From Bdellovibrionales bacterium (GTDB taxonomy: Bacteria; Bdellovibrionota; Bacteriovoracia; Bacteriovoracales; Bacteriovoracaceae), in the NCBI GenBank assembly GCA_030638415.1, contig DAOWEO010000008.1, positions 47-64,046 on the forward strand: a stretch of DNA of 64,000 bases. Reading direction: 5' to 3'. The position numbers and the translations under genes are program-made. Under the pieces are notes generated by a model, which did no database searches, was not told the origin of the DNA, and saw only the letters and a program-made list of their open reading frames with translations. How positions within the stretch are numbered: the first letter of the stretch is position 1; each line of letters begins with the position of its first letter. Shown here in pieces: positions 47,136-52,581 of this stretch.

Positions 47136-47945
47136 TCAGTAAGTAATTAAAAAATTAAACCCTGAATGACGCATCTTGTTTAGCAATACTTTGTGGCCGG
47201 CAGCTGTGACAAGAGTTGTACCGATGCTCCAAAGTATTATTGTTGTAAAAAAGATAGAAAATGATCCAGAATAAGTCCCAGTTAGGAGTATATGGCGCAC
47301 TTGTTCTAATTCAAATGTTAGTGGAGAGATGCTATTAGAAAGATTTTGTAGAATAGGGGGTAGAACTGCTATTGGAAAAAATGAACCAGCAAGAAAGGAT
47401 CCTAATGTATTTAGATACCCTAAAAAAGACTCCCCTCGTCCAATATATAAAATTATCAGTGAAAAAAGGATACCAAGGTTAACAAAAGGTATAATAAAAA
47501 TAATCTCAAATAGTATGGCCTTAAGTATATTTAAGGGGCTGCTGGGGAAATCAAATAGTATCATAGCTATAGAAAGTGTAATGATCGTTCTAATGATGTC
47601 TCTAATTAGGCCTCCGGTTCCCAGTACAAATAAAATTTTTAATATAGATACTGGTAGAGAAAGCATTAATTGAAAGCTTCCATCATGAACACTGAGTTTT
47701 ATCTTTCTAACAAAAGTACTAACGAAGTATAAAGGTAGTGATAGAAAGAGATCACCAACTAGAATATAACTAAAGTAACTCTGATTAAGGTGAGCATCTA
47801 CAGAGGCTGAAAAAGCTTTAGAGGTAAACCAATATATAAGTAGTGTTCCTAGAATTGCTATAATTTCACTTACAATTGTAAATAAGTGGTAATAACTGTT
47901 TTTATAATCAAGTTTGATCATTGATAATATGAGTCTAGCTAACAA
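47136..47945 (-). CDS. ABC-2-type transporter permease
   Basis: 269 aa with ~6 TM segments. It overlaps the upstream ATPase gene by 11 nt. Confidence 0.7.
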   Translation of the reverse strand: MLARLILSMIKLDYKNSYYHLFTIVSEIIAILGTLLIYWFTSKAFSASVDAHLNQSYFSYILVGDLFLSLPLYFVSTFVRKIKLSVHDGSFQLMLSLPVSILKILFVLGTGGLIRDIIRTIITLSIAMILFDFPSSPLNILKAILFEIIFIIPFVNLGILFSLIILYIGRGESFLGYLNTLGSFLAGSFFPIAVLPPILQNLSNSISPLTFELEQVRHILLTGTYSGSFSIFFTTIILWSIGTTLVTAAGHKVLLNKMRHSGFNFLITY

Positions 47946-48570
47946 GATTTCCTCCTGATAGATTCCATGTGGAAAATGTACTTAGGGAGTTAGTCATGTT
48001 TCGATGAGAGCTGAGTATAATCGTAGAATTTAAAAAAATTGTATTTAATAGCAGTGCTAACTCTACTTCTGTTTGTTGGTCAATATTTTCGAAGAGTTCA
48101 TCAATTAATAAAATATCTGGAGAATGGAGTGTTAGAATAAAAAATATTGCTAGTTTTTTCATACCTGTTGAGCACTTGTAAAATGGTTTCTCTAGTGACA
48201 GTTGAAAGGGGGCAATATCTGACCATTGTAGGTATTTAGTTTGAACTGCTGGACTTGCGAGTGACATCGTATTTGCAAAAAAAGAAATATTTTCTCTAAC
48301 TGTAAGCCTAGGAAATAGTCCATTACTTTGAGATGGAATGTAGGATAACTTTTTTTTGACCTGCTTATAATAAGGAGGTTGCCCTGTGATAAGAACTTGC
48401 CCTTTTTGTGGCACTAGTAATCCAGCTATTATCTTAAGTAAAGTTGTCTTGCCCACTCCATTATTACCATATAATAAATAATGCTGCCCCTGACGTATAT
48501 TTATGTTTATCTCATTGAAAAGAGGTTCATTATCAGTGAAAGAATGAGATATCTTTTTTAGTTCGATCAT
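47935..48570 (-). CDS. ABC transporter ATP-binding protein
   Basis: Walker A GNNGVGKTT, degenerate signature CSTGMKK, Walker B ILLIDELFENID. Confidence 0.85.
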   Translation of the reverse strand: MIELKKISHSFTDNEPLFNEININIRQGQHYLLYGNNGVGKTTLLKIIAGLLVPQKGQVLITGQPPYYKQVKKKLSYIPSQSNGLFPRLTVRENISFFANTMSLASPAVQTKYLQWSDIAPFQLSLEKPFYKCSTGMKKLAIFFILTLHSPDILLIDELFENIDQQTEVELALLLNTIFLNSTIILSSHRNMTNSLSTFSTWNLSGGNLVS

Positions 48571-48578
48571 TCCTTCTA

Positions 48579-48587
48579 TGGTATAAT
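48579..48587 (+). promoter_or_regulatory. Candidate extended -10 promoter (TGGTATAAT) for the peptide/kinase operon
   Basis: TGnTATAAT match in the 46-bp divergent gap, 29 nt before ATG 48617. GAGGAAG lies at 48608-48614. Confidence 0.4.
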
Positions 48588-48616
48588 AGGTAATGATAAA
48601 TTAACAGTGAGGAAGA

Positions 48617-50396: not shown

Positions 50397-51261
50397 AATC
50401 TTTGGTTAGGTGTTTCAAAATAAAGTAGCGCCAGCCACCTTGCTTTCCACTAAGCAGGAGTTCTCTATTAATAATTAGTTTCCAAAGATGTTTTTTTCTA
50501 AGATTAAAAGTAGATTGCATTTCTGTTGTCAAAGAGTAGTTGAAATATTTTTTCATAATCCATAGAACTTGGAGTACTGATTGTTTTAGTTTTAAGACTT
50601 TTGATAAATCAGAGATTTGCTGCCAATCCAATTGATCATGGTATTTCTCCATGATGTAATAAAGATCTAGTAGCCAGTATGCTTTAAGAAAATTATGTTG
50701 AAATGCGAGATGACCACATAGATGCACAAATAGATAATTAAGTGAGAGCTGCAAATATCCATCAATATAGCTGGGCTCTATTTGACGATAGTCATCTTGT
50801 AAATGGTAAAAAAGATGGGTATGACATTCAATAACAATTTGCGTATGGCATGTACTTTTACCAAATGTCTTTTTGTTTAAATTTCCAAACCATTTTTTTT
50901 CTTGTAGAACTTCATATCCATCACTTAGTAAAATTTCTGTTAGTTGAGTTAGTTCTTCAACGGTGAGTAGTAGATCTATATCTGAAAGAAATCGACTACC
51001 ATAATCAGTATAGATGCGATTAAGTAGATCCATTCCCTTTAACAGTACTGGAGAGATCTTTCGTTGTTTGAGCTTAGGGGAGAGCCTTTTTAATTCACTT
51101 ATTTTAATTTCGTTATGAATCCACTGCTTCTTCCACTCTTGGTTATCAGCCATGATATGAGTTTGATGTGCTAAGCCTTCTAGATGGTGAGATTGCAAAA
51201 AAATATCAAATTGTTTTGAGTTATTGGATTTAATGAATTGATTTGGCCATTCGAGCTTCAT
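50335..51261 (-). CDS. Nucleotidyltransferase-family protein (NTP_transf_5-like)
   Basis: LLKGMDLLNRIYTDYGSRFLSDIDLLL fits the LKG...Y.d.g.R...DiDlLv pattern of the uncharacterised nucleotidyltransferase family. Confidence 0.6.
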   Translation of the reverse strand: MKLEWPNQFIKSNNSKQFDIFLQSHHLEGLAHQTHIMADNQEWKKQWIHNEIKISELKRLSPKLKQRKISPVLLKGMDLLNRIYTDYGSRFLSDIDLLLTVEELTQLTEILLSDGYEVLQEKKWFGNLNKKTFGKSTCHTQIVIECHTHLFYHLQDDYRQIEPSYIDGYLQLSLNYLFVHLCGHLAFQHNFLKAYWLLDLYYIMEKYHDQLDWQQISDLSKVLKLKQSVLQVLWIMKKYFNYSLTTEMQSTFNLRKKHLWKLIINRELLLSGKQGGWRYFILKHLTKDSIVASLKYDILWIVSFFSKK

Positions 51262-51278
51262 ATATTTTATGATACACT

Positions 51279-51554
51279 ATGCAGATGAATTTACCATCTT
51301 GGAACTCTACATTAGCTTGGAAAAAAATTGGACCATATTTTATTATTATGGATCCAATTCTTAATAAACAAATTTTAACTCTGAATGAGGTAGGGGAAAT
51401 TATTTGGAATAAATGTGATGGTGGGCACTCATTAGTTGAATGTATTGATGATCTGGAAAATAAGTTTTCGGCGTCTCGTGAGGAGCTAGAAAAAGATTGT
51501 CTTGAGTTTATCTCTATTCTATTAAAACAAGGACTACTGGTGAGTGATGTATAA
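51279..51554 (+). CDS. PqqD-family protein (RiPP recognition element), copy 2
   Basis: 91 aa; WKKIGPYFIIMD...ILTLNEVGEIIWNKCDGGHSLVECIDDLENKFSASREELEKDCLEFISILLKQGLL is a classic PqqD pattern. Confidence 0.8.
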   Translation: MQMNLPSWNSTLAWKKIGPYFIIMDPILNKQILTLNEVGEIIWNKCDGGHSLVECIDDLENKFSASREELEKDCLEFISILLKQGLLVSDV

Positions 51555-52581
51555 AAAAATCAAACACTCATTGATGGCTGAAGCTGCAGATTATGCTTTT
51601 GATCACTGCTTACCAATTTTTACAACTTTAGAACTTAGTCAATATTGTAATTTTAGCTGTAAGCATTGCTATAATTTTGATAGGTCTGACGAACAGAAGC
51701 TTGTCTCACGTAGCTCTCCACTTAGTACTGATCGTTGGTTGACGCTTATTGATCAACTTGTCGCCGAGGGGGGGTTTTATATTGCTCTGACTGGTGGAGA
51801 ACCACTAACCCATCCTGATCTTTTTACCTTAATAGATCGTATTAGAGAGCACCACTGTATTGCTCGTGTAAAAACTAATGGCAGTTTATTAAGCAAGCAA
51901 ACGGCCATTAAGCTTTTTGATCATGGTGTATATTCAATGGATATATCTTTTTATGGAAATGATCGGGATACCTACAAGTCATTCTGTGGCGTCGATTTAT
52001 ACTCTTCAGTTGTTTCTGGTATTCGCAATGCTATCGACGCAGGTATTAGCGTAACATTGAATATTTTGTTACATCGAGGAAACTATAAGCAACTAGGTGA
52101 TATGATCTCTTTTGCCGAAGGGCTTGGAGTAGAATTTAATATTACTGATGAAATCACTGAACGTTATGATGGAACAGGTGGAGAGTCTCTATGGCGGTTG
52201 CAAAAAGATGACCTCGAATGGCTTTTTCAAAGTCCTTATAAAGATTATTTTATGTACGAGAATAAGGACGGAAATGTTCAATGCTCTTGTGCGAGAACAG
52301 TATGTGGAGTTGGTGCTGATGGAGATGTCTTTCCGTGTGTTGGGGCACCGATACAAAGTGGCAATATTTTAGAGCACTCATTTGGAGATATATGGCGCCG
52401 ATCCAATGAGCTGAATGATATTCGAAAACTAAAAGAGAGTGACTTTACAAGCTGTCAGGGGTGCTCATTAAGATCGTCTTGTTCCAGAAGTTCTGGGACG
52501 GTCTATGTGAACACAGGGGATTATACTGGTTGTGAAGACTTTACCAAACTCACAGCATCTTTGCGAAGAAAGTATCGCTAA
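51544..52581 (+). CDS. Radical SAM / SPASM-domain peptide-modifying enzyme (GTG 51544 or ATG 51547)
   Basis: CNFSCKHC (Cx3Cx2C), GGEPL, and a C-terminal Cys cluster CSCARTVCGVGADGDVFPC ... CQGCSLRSSC. It overlaps the PqqD-2 stop. Confidence 0.85.
   Translation: MMYKKIKHSLMAEAADYAFDHCLPIFTTLELSQYCNFSCKHCYNFDRSDEQKLVSRSSPLSTDRWLTLIDQLVAEGGFYIALTGGEPLTHPDLFTLIDRIREHHCIARVKTNGSLLSKQTAIKLFDHGVYSMDISFYGNDRDTYKSFCGVDLYSSVVSGIRNAIDAGISVTLNILLHRGNYKQLGDMISFAEGLGVEFNITDEITERYDGTGGESLWRLQKDDLEWLFQSPYKDYFMYENKDGNVQCSCARTVCGVGADGDVFPCVGAPIQSGNILEHSFGDIWRRSNELNDIRKLKESDFTSCQGCSLRSSCSRSSGTVYVNTGDYTGCEDFTKLTASLRRKYR

What the first reader, a model, noticed from the sequence alone, without database searches (positions are those of the whole stretch)
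47136..52581. Unclassified RiPP-type cassette: HprK-like kinase, two PqqD proteins, ER-type peptidase, nucleotidyltransferase, radical SAM/SPASM, ABC-2 exporter
Seen in sequence: a 46-bp promoter gap (48571-48616) separates two divergent gene sets. On the minus strand are an ABC ATPase and ABC-2 permease. On the plus strand is a tightly coupled set: a small peptide frame; a kinase with an HprK-type P-loop (GYSGAGKTT...LGDD) that starts 2 nt after the peptide stop; PqqD-1 (ATGA overlap); and an S26-type peptidase (GTGA overlap). These are followed by an inverted NTP_transf_5-like gene, then PqqD-2 and a Cx3Cx2C radical SAM with a SPASM-like C-terminus that overlaps PqqD-2. Established knowledge: PqqD-like domains are the leader-peptide recognition elements of RiPP pathways. 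rSAM/SPASM enzymes make thioether or C-C crosslinks (sactipeptides, ranthipeptides, PQQ, mycofactocin, streptide). HprK-like kinase plus nucleotidyltransferase pairs have, to my knowledge, only been characterised as tailoring enzymes of lasso peptides (paeninodin, pseudomycoidin). Inference: there is no Asn-synthetase-like lasso cyclase and no transglutaminase-like B2 protease. This therefore looks like a hybrid of lasso-style C-terminal tailoring, rSAM crosslinking and a different leader peptidase. I know of no characterised product for this architecture. From memory, HMM-defined but experimentally uncharacterised cassettes ('HPr-rel-A system', 'GeoRSP system') pair HprK-related kinases, PqqD proteins and rSAM/SPASM proteins; the relationship to those must be checked.
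Basis: partly seen in the sequence, partly recalled or inferred. Interest (0 to 1): 0.9.

Follow-up and report, generated by a model that had tools for sequence, protein, structure and literature searches.

The report
Phosphopeptide gene cluster with radical-SAM add-on
This is a real, conserved gene cluster of predatory Bdellovibrionota that matures a small ribosomal peptide; it combines the recently described "linear polyphosphorylated peptide" (LPP) machinery of Bacillota with a radical-SAM enzyme, a combination whose product nobody has characterised.

Summary
The RiPP reading holds, but part of the architecture is no longer uncharacterised. Peptide, kinase, RRE, SipW-like peptidase, NTP_transf_5 and ABC exporter match the LPP system of Paenibacillus (Popov et al., Nat Commun 2026, PMC13381572).

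- **Kinase:** full-length homologue of LppK (hhalign 99.7%, E 4e-27). It shares only the P-loop with the lasso HprK-type kinase. Both it and LppK fall in Pfam ScmC.
- **Peptidase:** homologue of LppS, with its proven Ser/His/Asp residues kept.
- **Leader:** aligns in register with LppA (Y-16, P-13, I/V-11, F-3). This predicts cleavage after F-G-A and the core LCNGTEIGGRKAAVPVCNTRKINS.

New here:
- an rSAM/SPASM enzyme, present in every related locus long enough to show it;
- a second RRE;
- an ABC-2 exporter;
- a nearly invariant two-Cys core ending in Ser/Thr;
- a Bdellovibrionota host (LPPs were called Bacillota-restricted).

In the loci seen, Cys-rich cores go with an rSAM and Cys-free ones do not. 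NCBIfam cut-offs exclude SynChlorMet, GeoRSP, HPr-rel-A and mycofactocin membership. The window has no lasso cyclase or B2 protease.

Verdict: a new variant of a known kind, with unknown chemistry. Related loci in three phyla sit beside giant Peptidase_C25 proteins, which is unexplained.

The parts
47136..47945 (-). ABC-2 type permease, the membrane subunit of the putative exporter
   Evidence: Pfam ABC2_membrane E 2.4e-5, 24.4 bits, just under gathering. Orthologues sit next to the cassette in L007-L016, L018, L026, L029, L031 and L034.
47935..48570 (-). ABC ATPase of the exporter, transcribed divergently from the peptide operon
   Evidence: Pfam ABC_tran E 3.8e-24. phmmer hit to the ATPase part of LppD, E 4e-12. 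Conserved in related loci.
48571..48617 (.). 47-nt divergent intergenic region with TATAAT (48582-48587) and the RBS GAGGAAG before the peptide ATG
   Evidence: Read directly from the sequence. The consensus promoter scan gave no more sites than shuffles, so promoter function is inferred only.
48618..48716 (+). Predicted leader of the precursor (residues 1-33, MSDTEIDKKENIDQKKEYIKPEIKSEDLVSFGA), with the RRE-binding-type motif YxKPxI and F-3/G-2/A-1 before the predicted cleavage site
   Evidence: Y, P and E are invariant in 25 unique homologues. It aligns in register with the LppA leader YxxPxVLxHQxIxFET|xxS. The cleavage site is inferred by analogy with LppS cleavage after F-E-T.
48717..48791 (+). 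Predicted core peptide LCNGTEIGGRKAAVPVCNTRKINS plus stop codon
   Evidence: CNG, GGRK, the second Cys and the C-terminal Ser/Thr are invariant in 25 unique homologues. Synonymous third-position changes dominate.
48794..49696 (+). LppK/ScmC-family P-loop kinase (GYSGAGKTT ... LGDDMN), PEPCK/HprK-type fold
   Evidence: hhalign against the LppK orthologue: probability 99.7%, E 3.8e-27, 244 columns. Against the lasso Hpr_kinase_C kinase: only 52 P-loop columns. Homologues carry Pfam PF27840 ScmC. AF2 pLDDT 92; the best Foldseek match is ATP-PEPCK. Invariant H150, K172, T174 and D187/D188.
49693..49953 (+). PqqD-type RRE 1, in the position of LppB
   Evidence: Pfam PqqD 43 bits against 23.4. Full-length weak match to lasso_PqqD_Bac and to LppB (E 3e-4). 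ATGA overlap with the kinase. Natural kinase-PqqD fusion P0010.
49950..50396 (+). LppS-like, SipW/archaeal-type signal-peptidase-I-like leader peptidase
   Evidence: hhalign against LppS: probability 98.4%, E 4.8e-15. BLASTP 31% identity, E 1e-11. Orthologues keep G9, S11, M12, H50, R51, K62, G63 and D64. LppS S29/H68/D93 align with S11/H50/D70; the last position is Asp or Glu in orthologues.
50335..51261 (-). NTP_transf_5 nucleotidyltransferase-fold protein (LppN-like), convergent with the peptidase gene and overlapping its 3' end by 62 nt
   Evidence: Pfam NTP_transf_5 E 1e-27. 24% identity over 197 aa to LppN, E 3e-7. Present in nearly every related locus long enough to show it (not detected in the 5-kb contig L024), usually in this inverted position.
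51279..51554 (+). PqqD-type RRE 2, directly upstream of the rSAM gene and overlapping it
   Evidence: Pfam PqqD 52 bits. In related loci that have a single RRE, it lies directly upstream of the rSAM gene wherever both genes are in view.
51544..52581 (+). Radical SAM / SPASM-type peptide maturase
   Evidence: Pfam Radical_SAM E 5e-19 and SPASM E 5e-10. C35/C39/C42 (Cx3Cx2C) and C247, C265, C313 are invariant in 16 of 16 orthologues. The nearest named models (AhbD, MftC, ScmF, PqqE, GeoRSP) are all far below their cut-offs. Nearest PDB sequences are PqqE, MoaA and SkfB.

Best explanation
The locus is a biosynthetic gene cluster for a ribosomally made, post-translationally modified peptide. It is built from two modules.

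**Module 1** is homologous to the LPP (linear polyphosphorylated peptide) system.
- The 57-aa precursor is bound through its YxKPxI leader motif by a PqqD-type RRE.
- The LppK/ScmC-family kinase phosphorylates a hydroxyl residue of the core. Candidates are the invariant C-terminal Ser57 and Thr38 of CNGT.
- The SipW-like serine peptidase, helped by the RRE, removes the leader after F31-G32-A33.
- The NTP_transf_5 protein may add a further group to the phosphate.
- The ABC-2 transporter exports the product.

**Module 2**, absent from the Bacillota LPP systems, is an rSAM/SPASM maturase with its own RRE. It most likely installs one or two crosslinks involving the two invariant cysteines (Cys35, Cys50), probably thioethers.

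Shown here: homology of each component, conservation and co-occurrence of the gene set and the precursor, and the register of the leader alignment.

Inferred: the cleavage site, the phosphosite, the rSAM chemistry, the order of steps and the role of the product.

The core is almost invariant across deep Bdellovibrionota lineages. Related clusters sit in polysaccharide loci or beside giant surface proteases. This suggests a conserved cell-envelope or physiological role rather than a fast-evolving antibiotic.
For: - Kinase family profile against the LppK orthologue: hhalign probability 99.7%, E 3.8e-27, full length. LppK itself carries Pfam ScmC, as do the window kinase's homologues.
- Peptidase family against LppS: probability 98.4%, E 4.8e-15. 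The residues proven catalytic in LppS are conserved.
- NTP_transf_5: Pfam E 1e-27, and homology to LppN.
- The gene order A-K-B-S is identical to lppA-K-B-S in L040.
- The leader aligns in register with LppA: Y-16, P-13, I/V-11, F-3.
- A scan of metagenomes with the core motif alone returned 23 loci. Seventeen have the kinase adjacent and 20 have at least one cassette gene, in several different gene orders.
- The rSAM is present in every related locus long enough to show it. Its Cx3Cx2C and auxiliary cysteines are invariant.
- In the loci seen, Cys-rich cores go with an rSAM (window clade, L002, L005, L006) and Cys-free precursors do not (L004, Bacillota LppA).
- Natural kinase-PqqD and kinase-peptidase fusions exist.
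- LPP experiments show polyphosphorylation by LppK, RRE-dependent cleavage by LppS, and poor cleavage of the unphosphorylated precursor.
Against: - No chemistry was measured here. LppN was inactive in the published heterologous system, so the NTP_transf_5 role is unknown even in LPP.
- The LPP phosphosite (core Ser3) has no equivalent here; position 3 is Asn.
- The statistical support for the leader alignment alone is negligible (probability 1.7%). It rests on register and invariance.
- The rSAM's best named matches are cofactor-type enzymes (AhbD, MftC, PqqE), not sacti- or ranthipeptide synthases. A thioether product is therefore a guess.
- The exporter differs: a two-component ABC-2 type instead of a MsbA-like fused pump.
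- One related cassette (L015) has no recognisable precursor within 17 kb.
Confidence: 0.75

Rival explanations
1. A cofactor-type pathway, like PQQ or mycofactocin. The rSAM and RRE would convert the invariant core into a small redox cofactor or prosthetic group. The kinase, peptidase and NTP_transf_5 would serve in activation and trimming rather than decorating a secreted peptide.
For: The rSAM's best named matches are AhbD, mycofactocin MftC (112 bits, aligned over nearly the whole length) and PqqE. The core is almost invariant across lineages whose kinases are only 24-55% identical. That is typical of cofactor precursors and atypical of antibiotics.
Against: All those models are far below their cut-offs. 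A dedicated ABC exporter is part of the conserved set. No dependent dehydrogenase or oxidoreductase is conserved next to the cassette. The remaining genes are homologous to a system that yields a 45-residue phosphorylated peptide.
Confidence: 0.1
2. A conventional antimicrobial sactipeptide or ranthipeptide (bacteriocin) cluster. The rSAM would make the defining thioethers, the ABC-2 transporter would provide export and immunity, and phosphorylation would be a minor tailoring step.
For: rSAM/SPASM plus RRE plus a Cys-containing cationic core plus an ABC transporter is the classic layout. Weak matches to StsB and PapB family maturases.
Against: The core sequence is nearly invariant in 25 unique homologues spanning several Bdellovibrionota lineages, unlike hypervariable bacteriocin cores. 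Kinase, SpI peptidase and NTP_transf_5 are nearly as universal as the rSAM. Neighbours are polysaccharide genes or giant C25 surface proteins, not immunity genes.
Confidence: 0.12
3. The small peptide is not the substrate, or not the only one. The cassette would modify or process a neighbouring large protein, for example the giant Peptidase_C25 proteins found beside related cassettes, with the peptide acting as a regulator or inhibitor.
For: C25 giants sit directly next to the cassette in at least seven Bdellovibrionota lineages and in 3 of 5 distant loci from Acidobacteriota and Chloroflexota. LPP precursors range up to 200 aa.
Against: The window, L007/L008 and L012-L014 have the full cassette and the peptide but no C25 protein. 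The peptide carries the leader motif in register with the proven LPP substrate.
Confidence: 0.05

Closest known systems
LPP (linear polyphosphorylated peptide) biosynthetic gene clusters of Bacillota: lppA-K-B-S-D-N of Paenibacillus alginolyticus (Popov et al., Nat Commun 2026, PMC13381572)
   Same: - Precursor with a YxxPx[V/I] leader and an aromatic residue at -3.
- ScmC-family kinase: full-length homology, E 3.8e-27.
- Discrete PqqD-type RRE.
- SipW-like SpI leader peptidase with conserved Ser/His/acid residues.
- NTP_transf_5 protein and an ABC exporter.
- Same A-K-B-S gene order.
- No lasso cyclase.
- Some members are embedded in polysaccharide or glycosyltransferase loci.
   Different: - Adds an rSAM/SPASM maturase, and in the window lineage a second RRE.
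- The exporter is a two-gene ABC-2 type, not MsbA-like.
- The core is short (24-28 aa), nearly invariant, has two Cys and ends in Ser/Thr. LPP cores are described as highly variable, and the two LppA sequences seen here have no Cys.
- Core position 3 is Asn, not the phosphorylated Ser3.
- The host is Bdellovibrionota, whereas LPPs were described as restricted to Bacillota.
SynChlorMet (SCM) cassette: NCBIfam/TIGRFAM models ScmC, ScmD (PqqD-related), ScmE and ScmF (two rSAM/SPASM proteins). HMM-defined and, as I recall the TIGRFAM description, without an identified precursor
   Same: It combines a ScmC-family P-loop protein, a PqqD-type protein and rSAM/SPASM maturase(s). Homologues of the window kinase carry Pfam PF27840 'ScmC'.
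   Different: All four NCBIfam models score far below their cut-offs: ScmC 23 against 125, ScmD 29 against 100, ScmE 72 and ScmF 92 against 400. There is one rSAM here, not two. This cassette also has an SpI peptidase, an NTP_transf_5 protein, an exporter and an identifiable precursor.
Paeninodin/pseudomycoidin-type phosphorylated lasso peptide clusters
   Same: A kinase plus NTP_transf_5 tailoring pair, a PqqD-type RRE recognising a [Y/W]xxP leader motif, and a hydroxyl residue at the peptide C-terminus. Phosphorylation of the C-terminal Ser in paeninodin is from my own knowledge of Zhu et al. 2016.
   Different: No Asn-synthase-like cyclase and no transglutaminase-like B2 protease anywhere in the window. 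The kinase matches the lasso Hpr_kinase_C kinase only over 52 P-loop columns. Leader removal is by a serine SpI-like peptidase.
Sactipeptide and ranthipeptide pathways, and QhpD-type Cys crosslinking (rSAM/SPASM thioether synthases)
   Same: An rSAM with auxiliary Fe-S cysteines, an RRE, a Cys-containing precursor and an ABC exporter.
   Different: No family-specific model is reached. There are only two Cys. The pathway is coupled to a kinase, an NTP-transferase and an SpI peptidase. No chemistry has been shown.

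Membership tests
LPP family (Popov et al. 2026) | SipW-like archaeal-type signal peptidase I (LppS) as leader peptidase, catalytic S29/H68/D93 | tested here: met
   hhalign of A2 against LppS: probability 98.4%, E 4.8e-15. BLASTP 31% identity, E 1e-11. S11 and H50 are invariant, and D70 is an acidic residue in all orthologues.
LPP family (Popov et al. 2026) | LppK-type kinase | tested here: met
   hhalign of A1 against the LppK orthologue (L040 6960-7745): probability 99.7%, E 3.8e-27, 244 columns. 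Both carry Pfam ScmC. Phosphorylating activity itself cannot be tested here.
LPP family (Popov et al. 2026) | Discrete PqqD-type RRE next to the kinase and peptidase | tested here: met
   PqqD-1 passes Pfam PqqD and lies between the kinase and the peptidase, as LppB does. Its direct similarity to LppB is weak (E 3e-4).
LPP family (Popov et al. 2026) | NTP transferase (LppN, Pfam NTP_transf_5) | tested here: met
   Pfam E 1e-27. 24% identity over 197 aa to LppN, E 3e-7.
LPP family (Popov et al. 2026) | MsbA-like fused ABC exporter (LppD) | tested here: not met
   The exporter is a separate ATPase plus an ABC-2 permease. Only the ATPase domain matches LppD.
LPP family (Popov et al. 2026) | Precursor with leader motif YxxPxVLxHQxIxFETxxS and a variable C-terminus | tested here: inconclusive
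   Y, P, I/V and F-3 align in register. HQ, ET and the phosphorylated Ser3 are absent, and the core is conserved rather than variable.
LPP family (Popov et al. 2026) | Product is a linear peptide whose primary modification is polyphosphorylation; no other core-modifying enzyme class in the conserved set | tested here: not met
   A conserved rSAM/SPASM maturase is part of the set in all related loci with enough sequence. No radical SAM is mentioned in the paper or its supplements. The chemistry cannot be tested here.
SynChlorMet cassette (NCBIfam TIGR04248-04251) | ScmC, ScmD, ScmE and ScmF each reach their equivalog cut-offs; two rSAM/SPASM proteins | tested here: not met
   Scores 23.4 against 125, 29.2 against 100, 71.8 against 400 and 91.9 against 400. 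Only one rSAM gene.
GeoRSP system (NCBIfam TIGR04302/04303) | GeoRSP PqqD-family chaperone and GeoRSP rSAM/SPASM reach their cut-offs | tested here: not met
   Scores 25.3 against 100 and 86.1 against 400.
HPr-rel-A system (NCBIfam TIGR04352/04355) | HprK-related kinase A or B | tested here: not met
   No hit at E <= 0.1 for the window kinase. Only distant kinases from other phyla (L002, L004, L005) give weak hits of 31-43 bits against a cut-off of 200.
Lasso peptides | Asn-synthase-like macrolactam cyclase (C) and transglutaminase-like leader peptidase (B2) | tested here: not met
   phmmer with the Paenibacillus lasso C and B2 proteins finds nothing in any ORF of 60 aa or more in the 64-kb window. 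No such Pfam domains in the cassette or the tested flanking genes.
HprK/P-type kinases (Pfam Hpr_kinase_C) | Match to Hpr_kinase_C; HprK-like C-terminal domain | tested here: not met
   No Hpr_kinase_C hit at E <= 0.1. The family profile hits the ATP-PEPCK P-loop region (E 2e-7) and no HprK chain in the PDB. Foldseek: PEPCK E 5e-8, TM 0.44-0.5; HprK E 2e-5, TM 0.24. It shares the fold superfamily but is not the family.
Sactipeptide/ranthipeptide maturases | Cys-to-carbon thioether formation by the rSAM/SPASM enzyme on the precursor | not testable with these tools
   Only the prerequisites were seen: invariant Cx3Cx2C plus auxiliary cysteines and two invariant precursor cysteines. Family-specific models are not reached.
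Mycofactocin system | MftC equivalog cut-off; precursor ending in Val-Tyr | tested here: not met
   111.9 bits against a cut-off of 265. The precursor ends in Asn-Ser.

The most novel reading that the evidence does not exclude
The Bdellovibrionota cassette may make a previously unseen class of molecule: a short peptide that is both radical-SAM crosslinked through cysteine and phosphorylated or phospho-decorated. Its near-invariant sequence, its links to polysaccharide loci and the recurrent adjacency of giant Peptidase_C25 surface proteins across three phyla would point to a cell-envelope function rather than an antibiotic. Examples would be an anchor, acceptor or regulator for C25-type proteases or sortase-like enzymes, or for surface polysaccharide. 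If so, the ScmC-kinase/RRE/rSAM cassettes that Haft-style HMMs defined as 'SynChlorMet'-like would finally get both a precursor and a biological context.
Probability: 0.25. Interest if true: 0.8.

Novelty: new variant of a known kind. Interest (0 to 1): 0.62.

Why it matters
LPPs were described only in 2026. They were said to be Bacillota-restricted, and their final product and role are unknown. This locus matters for four reasons.

- **Wider reach.** The same kinase, RRE, SpI-peptidase and NTP-transferase machinery exists in Gram-negative predatory bacteria, and by extension in Acidobacteriota, Chloroflexota and deltaproteobacterial MAGs.
- **A defined substrate.** It gives a short, invariant substrate that should be much easier to follow by mass spectrometry than the 45-residue Gly/Asn-rich LppA core.
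- **A new combination.** It couples phosphorylation to radical-SAM chemistry on one peptide. I found no report of this in the literature I could search.
- **A link to orphan cassettes.** It connects the experimentally grounded LPP family to the orphan SynChlorMet-type cassettes and supplies candidate precursors for them.

The link to Peptidase_C25 giants and polysaccharide loci offers a testable hypothesis about function at the cell surface of predatory bacteria.

Tried and rejected
- **Genome-contig scan with the kinase alignment.** Only 6 loci came back. Five were distant, but they later proved useful.
- **Exact look-up of the window kinase and cluster-member names.** These gave no source organism. 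The lineage was obtained from SecY instead.
- **Literature searches.** Searches for SynChlorMet, ScmC, PF14907, Bdellovibrio RiPPs and HprK+SPASM found nothing relevant. The LPP paper surfaced only through the YxxP leader-motif search.
- **PDB sequence searches with the two PqqD proteins.** There was no match for PqqD-1 and only marginal ones for PqqD-2 (PqqD, a lasso chaperone, TbiB1). They cannot decide which RRE is LppB-like.
- **N-glycosylation sequon idea for CNG[T/S].** Considered and set aside, because one lineage has CNGM (L016).
- **Double-glycine/C39-type leader processing.** Rejected. There is no C39 domain in the transporter, and the hydrophobic register is off by one. The LppS analogy fits the register exactly.
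- **The Bdellovibrionales SpI (PIP88705.1) in the LPP paper's supplement.** It is not this clade. It is more distant from the window peptidase family (E 2.9e-8, KGD box lost) than LppS is.
- **Flanking genes.** The 213-aa and 658-aa ORFs, the response regulator and the Na/H antiporter are conserved only in the closest relatives L007/L008. They are not counted as part of the cassette.

Full report
**1. The observation**

- ABC-2 permease 47136-47945(-)
- ABC ATPase 47935-48570(-)
- 57-aa ORF 48618-48791(+)
- P-loop protein 48794-49696(+), starting 2 nt after the peptide stop
- PqqD-1 49693-49953(+), ATGA overlap
- small peptidase-like protein 49950-50396(+), GTGA overlap
- inverted NTP_transf_5 gene 50335-51261(-)
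- PqqD-2 51279-51554(+)
- rSAM/SPASM gene 51544-52581(+)

The divergent gap is 47 nt. It carries a TATAAT and a strong ribosome-binding site in front of the peptide ATG. The generic promoter scan is no better than shuffles.

Pfam supports both PqqD proteins, NTP_transf_5, Radical_SAM plus SPASM, and ABC_tran. The kinase (PEPCK_ATP, 22 bits) and the peptidase (Peptidase_S24, E 0.07) are only marginal in this Pfam copy.

**2. The cassette is conserved and has a real precursor**

The kinase has 117 homologue clusters. All are annotated 'hypothetical', and the named ones come from Bacteriovorax, Bacteriovoracaceae, Oligoflexia and Bdellovibrionaceae MAGs. An exhaustive profile search finds 153 clusters (50% identity level) at E <= 1e-30 and about 2,500 at E <= 1e-10.

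Neighbourhoods of eight homologues with 24-55% identity all show the same set. It comprises an ABC ATPase, an ABC-2 permease, a 51-68-aa ORF, the kinase, a 130-152-aa peptidase-like protein, NTP_transf_5, a PqqD protein and an rSAM/SPASM gene. NTP_transf_5 is usually inverted. The single PqqD lies directly upstream of the rSAM.

The small ORFs are homologous to one another. Scanning metagenome contigs with the core motif alone (CNG[TSM]x[TNI]GGRK) returned 23 loci. Seventeen have the kinase adjacent and 20 have at least one cassette gene, and the peptide lies either before or after the kinase. Shuffled order with retained adjacency argues for functional linkage.

Across 25 unique peptides, the following are invariant: Y, P and E of the leader; CNG; GGRK; a second Cys; and a C-terminal Ser or Thr. 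Nucleotide differences concentrate at third codon positions.

SecY of the window is 77-81% identical to Halobacteriovorax and Bacteriovoracaceae sequences. The host is therefore a member of the Bacteriovoracales, in the Bdellovibrionota.

**3. What the parts are**

*Kinase.* The family alignment keeps QRDF, DGxYNFLRW, HSS, GxSGAGKTT and LGDDMN, with H150, K172, T174 and D187/D188 invariant.
- Its profile hits the nucleotide-binding core of ATP-dependent PEPCK (E 2e-7) and no HprK chain.
- A confident AF2 model (pLDDT 92) matches PEPCK best (E 5e-8, TM 0.44-0.5). HprK matches only over its P-loop domain (E 2e-5, TM 0.24).
- Precomputed Pfam places the homologues in PF27840 'ScmC'.

*Peptidase.* Seven orthologues keep GxSMxP, GD, HR and KGD. 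These are the boxes of ER/archaeal-type signal peptidase I, with Ser11 and His50.

*rSAM.* Cx3Cx2C and three auxiliary cysteines are invariant in 16 of 16 orthologues, and further cysteines are present in most.

*NCBIfam system models.* All are missed by wide margins: ScmC 23/125, ScmD 29/100, ScmF 92/400, GeoRSP rSAM 86/400, MftC 112/265. HprK_rel_A does not hit at all.

**4. The closest characterised system**

The peptide's YxKPxI motif resembles the lasso leader motif. Searching the literature for that motif led to Popov et al., Nat Commun 2026 (PMC13381572). The paper describes 'linear polyphosphorylated peptides' (LPPs).
- The conserved set is a precursor (leader YxxPxVLxHQxIxFETxxS), an HprK-like kinase LppK, a discrete RRE LppB, a SipW-like SpI peptidase LppS, a MsbA-like pump LppD and an NTP transferase LppN. 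The clusters often lie inside capsular polysaccharide loci.
- LppK puts several phosphates on core Ser3.
- LppS (catalytic S29/H68/D93) removes the leader after F-E-T, needs LppB, and cuts the unphosphorylated precursor poorly.
- LppN was inactive in the heterologous host.
- The authors call LPPs restricted to Bacillota.
- Neither the paper nor its supplements mention radical SAM enzymes.

I fetched an LPP locus whose LppS is 97% identical (L040). There, LppK carries Pfam ScmC, while the neighbouring lasso kinase carries Hpr_kinase_C.

Direct comparisons with the window genes:

| Window gene | LPP partner | Result |
|---|---|---|
| Kinase family | LppK | hhalign 99.7%, E 3.8e-27, 244 columns to the C-terminal motif |
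| Kinase family | lasso kinase | only 52 P-loop columns |
| Peptidase family | LppS | 98.4%, E 4.8e-15; 31% identity |
| NTP_transf_5 | LppN | 24% identity over 197 aa, E 3e-7 |
| PqqD-1 | LppB | full length, weak (E 3e-4) |

The gene order A-K-B-S is the same in both.

The leaders align in register: KLYARPMVLSQQPVRFET|AQS against KEYIKPEIKSEDLVSFGA|LCN. Y-16, P-13, V/I-11 and F-3 coincide. The statistics for so short a match are negligible, so this rests on register and invariance.

No lasso cyclase or B2 protease is encoded anywhere in the window.

**5. What is different**

The rSAM/SPASM gene with an RRE directly upstream is present in every related Bdellovibrionota locus long enough to show it. 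It is absent from L040 and from the LPP paper.

The window lineage and L029 have two RREs; most relatives have one. Natural kinase-PqqD and kinase-peptidase fusions exist.

The exporter is ABC-2 type. The core is short, cationic and nearly invariant, with two Cys and a terminal Ser/Thr. LPP cores are described as variable, and the two LppA sequences seen here have no Cys.

The distant kinase loci from other phyla contain small ORFs with the same leader type.
- L005: RKYVKPCL...
- L006: KPYEAPQI...
- L002: WQRPRI...

All three have Cys-rich cores ending in Ser, and each of these loci encodes an rSAM. L004 (Anaerolineales) has the kinase, an S24-like peptidase, a PqqD protein and a peptide (KPYIKPAI...) with no Cys, and no rSAM. 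The rule that Cys-containing cores go with an rSAM holds in every case I could see. This is the main argument that the rSAM acts on the cysteines.

**6. Mechanism proposed**

Steps marked (H) are supported by homology to experimentally shown LPP steps. Steps marked (I) are inferred.
- (H) An RRE binds the YxKPxI leader.
- (H) The LppK-type kinase phosphorylates a core hydroxyl. (I) The site is either the invariant C-terminal Ser57 or Thr38; LPP's Ser3 position is Asn here.
- (I) The rSAM, with PqqD-2, crosslinks Cys35 and/or Cys50, most likely as thioethers.
- (H for the enzyme, I for the site) The SpI-like peptidase cuts after F31-G32-A33 and releases LCNGTEIGGRKAAVPVCNTRKINS.
- (I) NTP_transf_5 decorates the phosphate.
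- (I) The ABC-2 pump exports the product.

**7. Rivals**

A cofactor-type pathway is suggested by the rSAM's nearest models (AhbD, MftC, PqqE) and by the invariant core. The conserved exporter and the LPP homology argue against it.

A classic bacteriocin is disfavoured by the invariance of the core.

A role centred on neighbouring giant proteins is disfavoured for this window, which has none.

**8. An unexpected association**

A giant protein with a Peptidase_C25 domain (1,000-3,300 aa) lies immediately next to the cassette in at least seven Bdellovibrionota lineages. The peptide gene often overlaps its stop codon.

The same holds in 3 of the 5 distant loci retrieved by kinase similarity alone: L002 and L006 from Acidobacteriota, and L004 from Chloroflexota.

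The Bdellovibrionota giants whose C-termini I read (three loci) end in GGGCS followed by a hydrophobic stretch and basic residues, which looks like a C-terminal sorting signal.

Other members lie inside glycosyltransferase-rich loci, echoing the capsule-locus context of LPPs. The window has neither context. I could not quantify this beyond the loci in hand.

**9. Verdict**

What remains new:
- the coupling of an LPP-type module to an rSAM/SPASM maturase;
- a defined, invariant two-Cys precursor;
- the occurrence in Bdellovibrionota and beyond;
- the bridge to the orphan SynChlorMet-type cassettes.

I rate it a new variant of a known kind, with interest about 0.6.

Noticed in passing
L009 1-5154; L010 351-7838; L015 3-7967; L016 2-5371; L020 2-5989; L023 1-3078; L027 2-5932; L002 4042-9624(-); L004 9065-12793 and 14577-16559; L006 8209-15930: Giant Peptidase_C25-domain proteins lie directly beside the kinase/RRE/peptide cassette in many Bdellovibrionota lineages. 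The same is true in 3 of 5 distant loci from Acidobacteriota and Chloroflexota that were fetched by kinase similarity alone. The peptide gene often starts at or overlaps the giant gene's stop codon. The window itself has no C25 protein.
   Followed up: partly
L005 7444-7608(+); L006 7340-7591(+); L002 3828-4031(-); L004 8659-8847(+): Candidate precursors with [Y/W]xxPx[ILV] leaders sit next to distant ScmC-type kinases in other phyla. Those beside an rSAM have Cys-rich cores ending in Ser. The one without an rSAM (L004) has no Cys. These may be the missing precursors of SynChlorMet-like cassettes.
   Followed up: partly
L012/L013 2390-6253 and 11554-16909; L014 1-6190 and 11977-16876: In some Bacteriovoracaceae genomes the cassette is embedded in a glycosyltransferase/SLBB/Glycos_transf_4 (polysaccharide-type) locus. 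This parallels the capsular-polysaccharide context reported for Bacillota LPP clusters.
   Followed up: no
window 50335-50396 and 51262-51278: The peptidase gene and the inverted NTP_transf_5 gene overlap tail-to-tail by 62 nt. Overlaps of 33-95 nt occur in the L009, L011, L012 and L014 loci checked. The NTP_transf_5 and PqqD-2 start codons are only 17 nt apart. PqqD-2 and the rSAM gene must therefore be transcribed either by read-through antisense to NTP_transf_5 or from a promoter inside coding sequence.
   Followed up: no
P0010 (386 aa); P0028, P0201, P0216, P0226 (about 420 aa): Longer homologues look like natural fusions of the kinase with other cassette parts. Precomputed Pfam shows PqqD in P0010 and Peptidase_S24 in P0028. 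P0201, P0216 and P0226 are inferred from their similar length only. This is consistent with the RRE-dependent, phosphorylation-coupled cleavage shown for LPP.
   Followed up: partly
L015 8001-12989; L022 720-926: One Oligoflexia locus (L015) has the full enzyme set but no recognisable precursor within 17 kb. Conversely, L022 carries an orphan precursor gene with no cassette gene in the 6 kb downstream.
   Followed up: partly
L010 about 7650-7838; L009 about 4950-5154; L015 about 7700-7967: The giant C25 proteins end in a GGGCS motif followed by a hydrophobic helix and basic residues. This resembles a MYXO-CTERM-like C-terminal sorting signal (a resemblance from memory, not tested).
   Followed up: no
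L016 10232-11434: In the Pseudobdellovibrionaceae genome CP060220 the gene after the rSAM encodes a 400-aa protein with methyltransferase domains. It also gives a weak phmmer hit to the window peptidase (E 1.8e-5), so it may be a peptidase-methyltransferase fusion. NTP_transf_5 there is co-oriented and upstream of the peptide.
   Followed up: no
window 46294-47055(-) and 44823-46265(-): A response regulator with a cNMP-binding domain and a Na+/H+ antiporter flank the exporter genes. They are conserved only in the closest relatives (L007/L008), so they are probably not part of the cassette.
   Followed up: partly
window 9339-10649; 24613-24685(-): SecY lies within a run of small co-oriented + strand ORFs at about 1-15 kb. 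This looks like a ribosomal-protein/SecY-type operon, though only SecY was checked. One tRNA is the only Rfam hit in the window. SecY places the organism in Bacteriovoracales (77-81% identity to Halobacteriovorax and Bacteriovoracaceae).
   Followed up: partly
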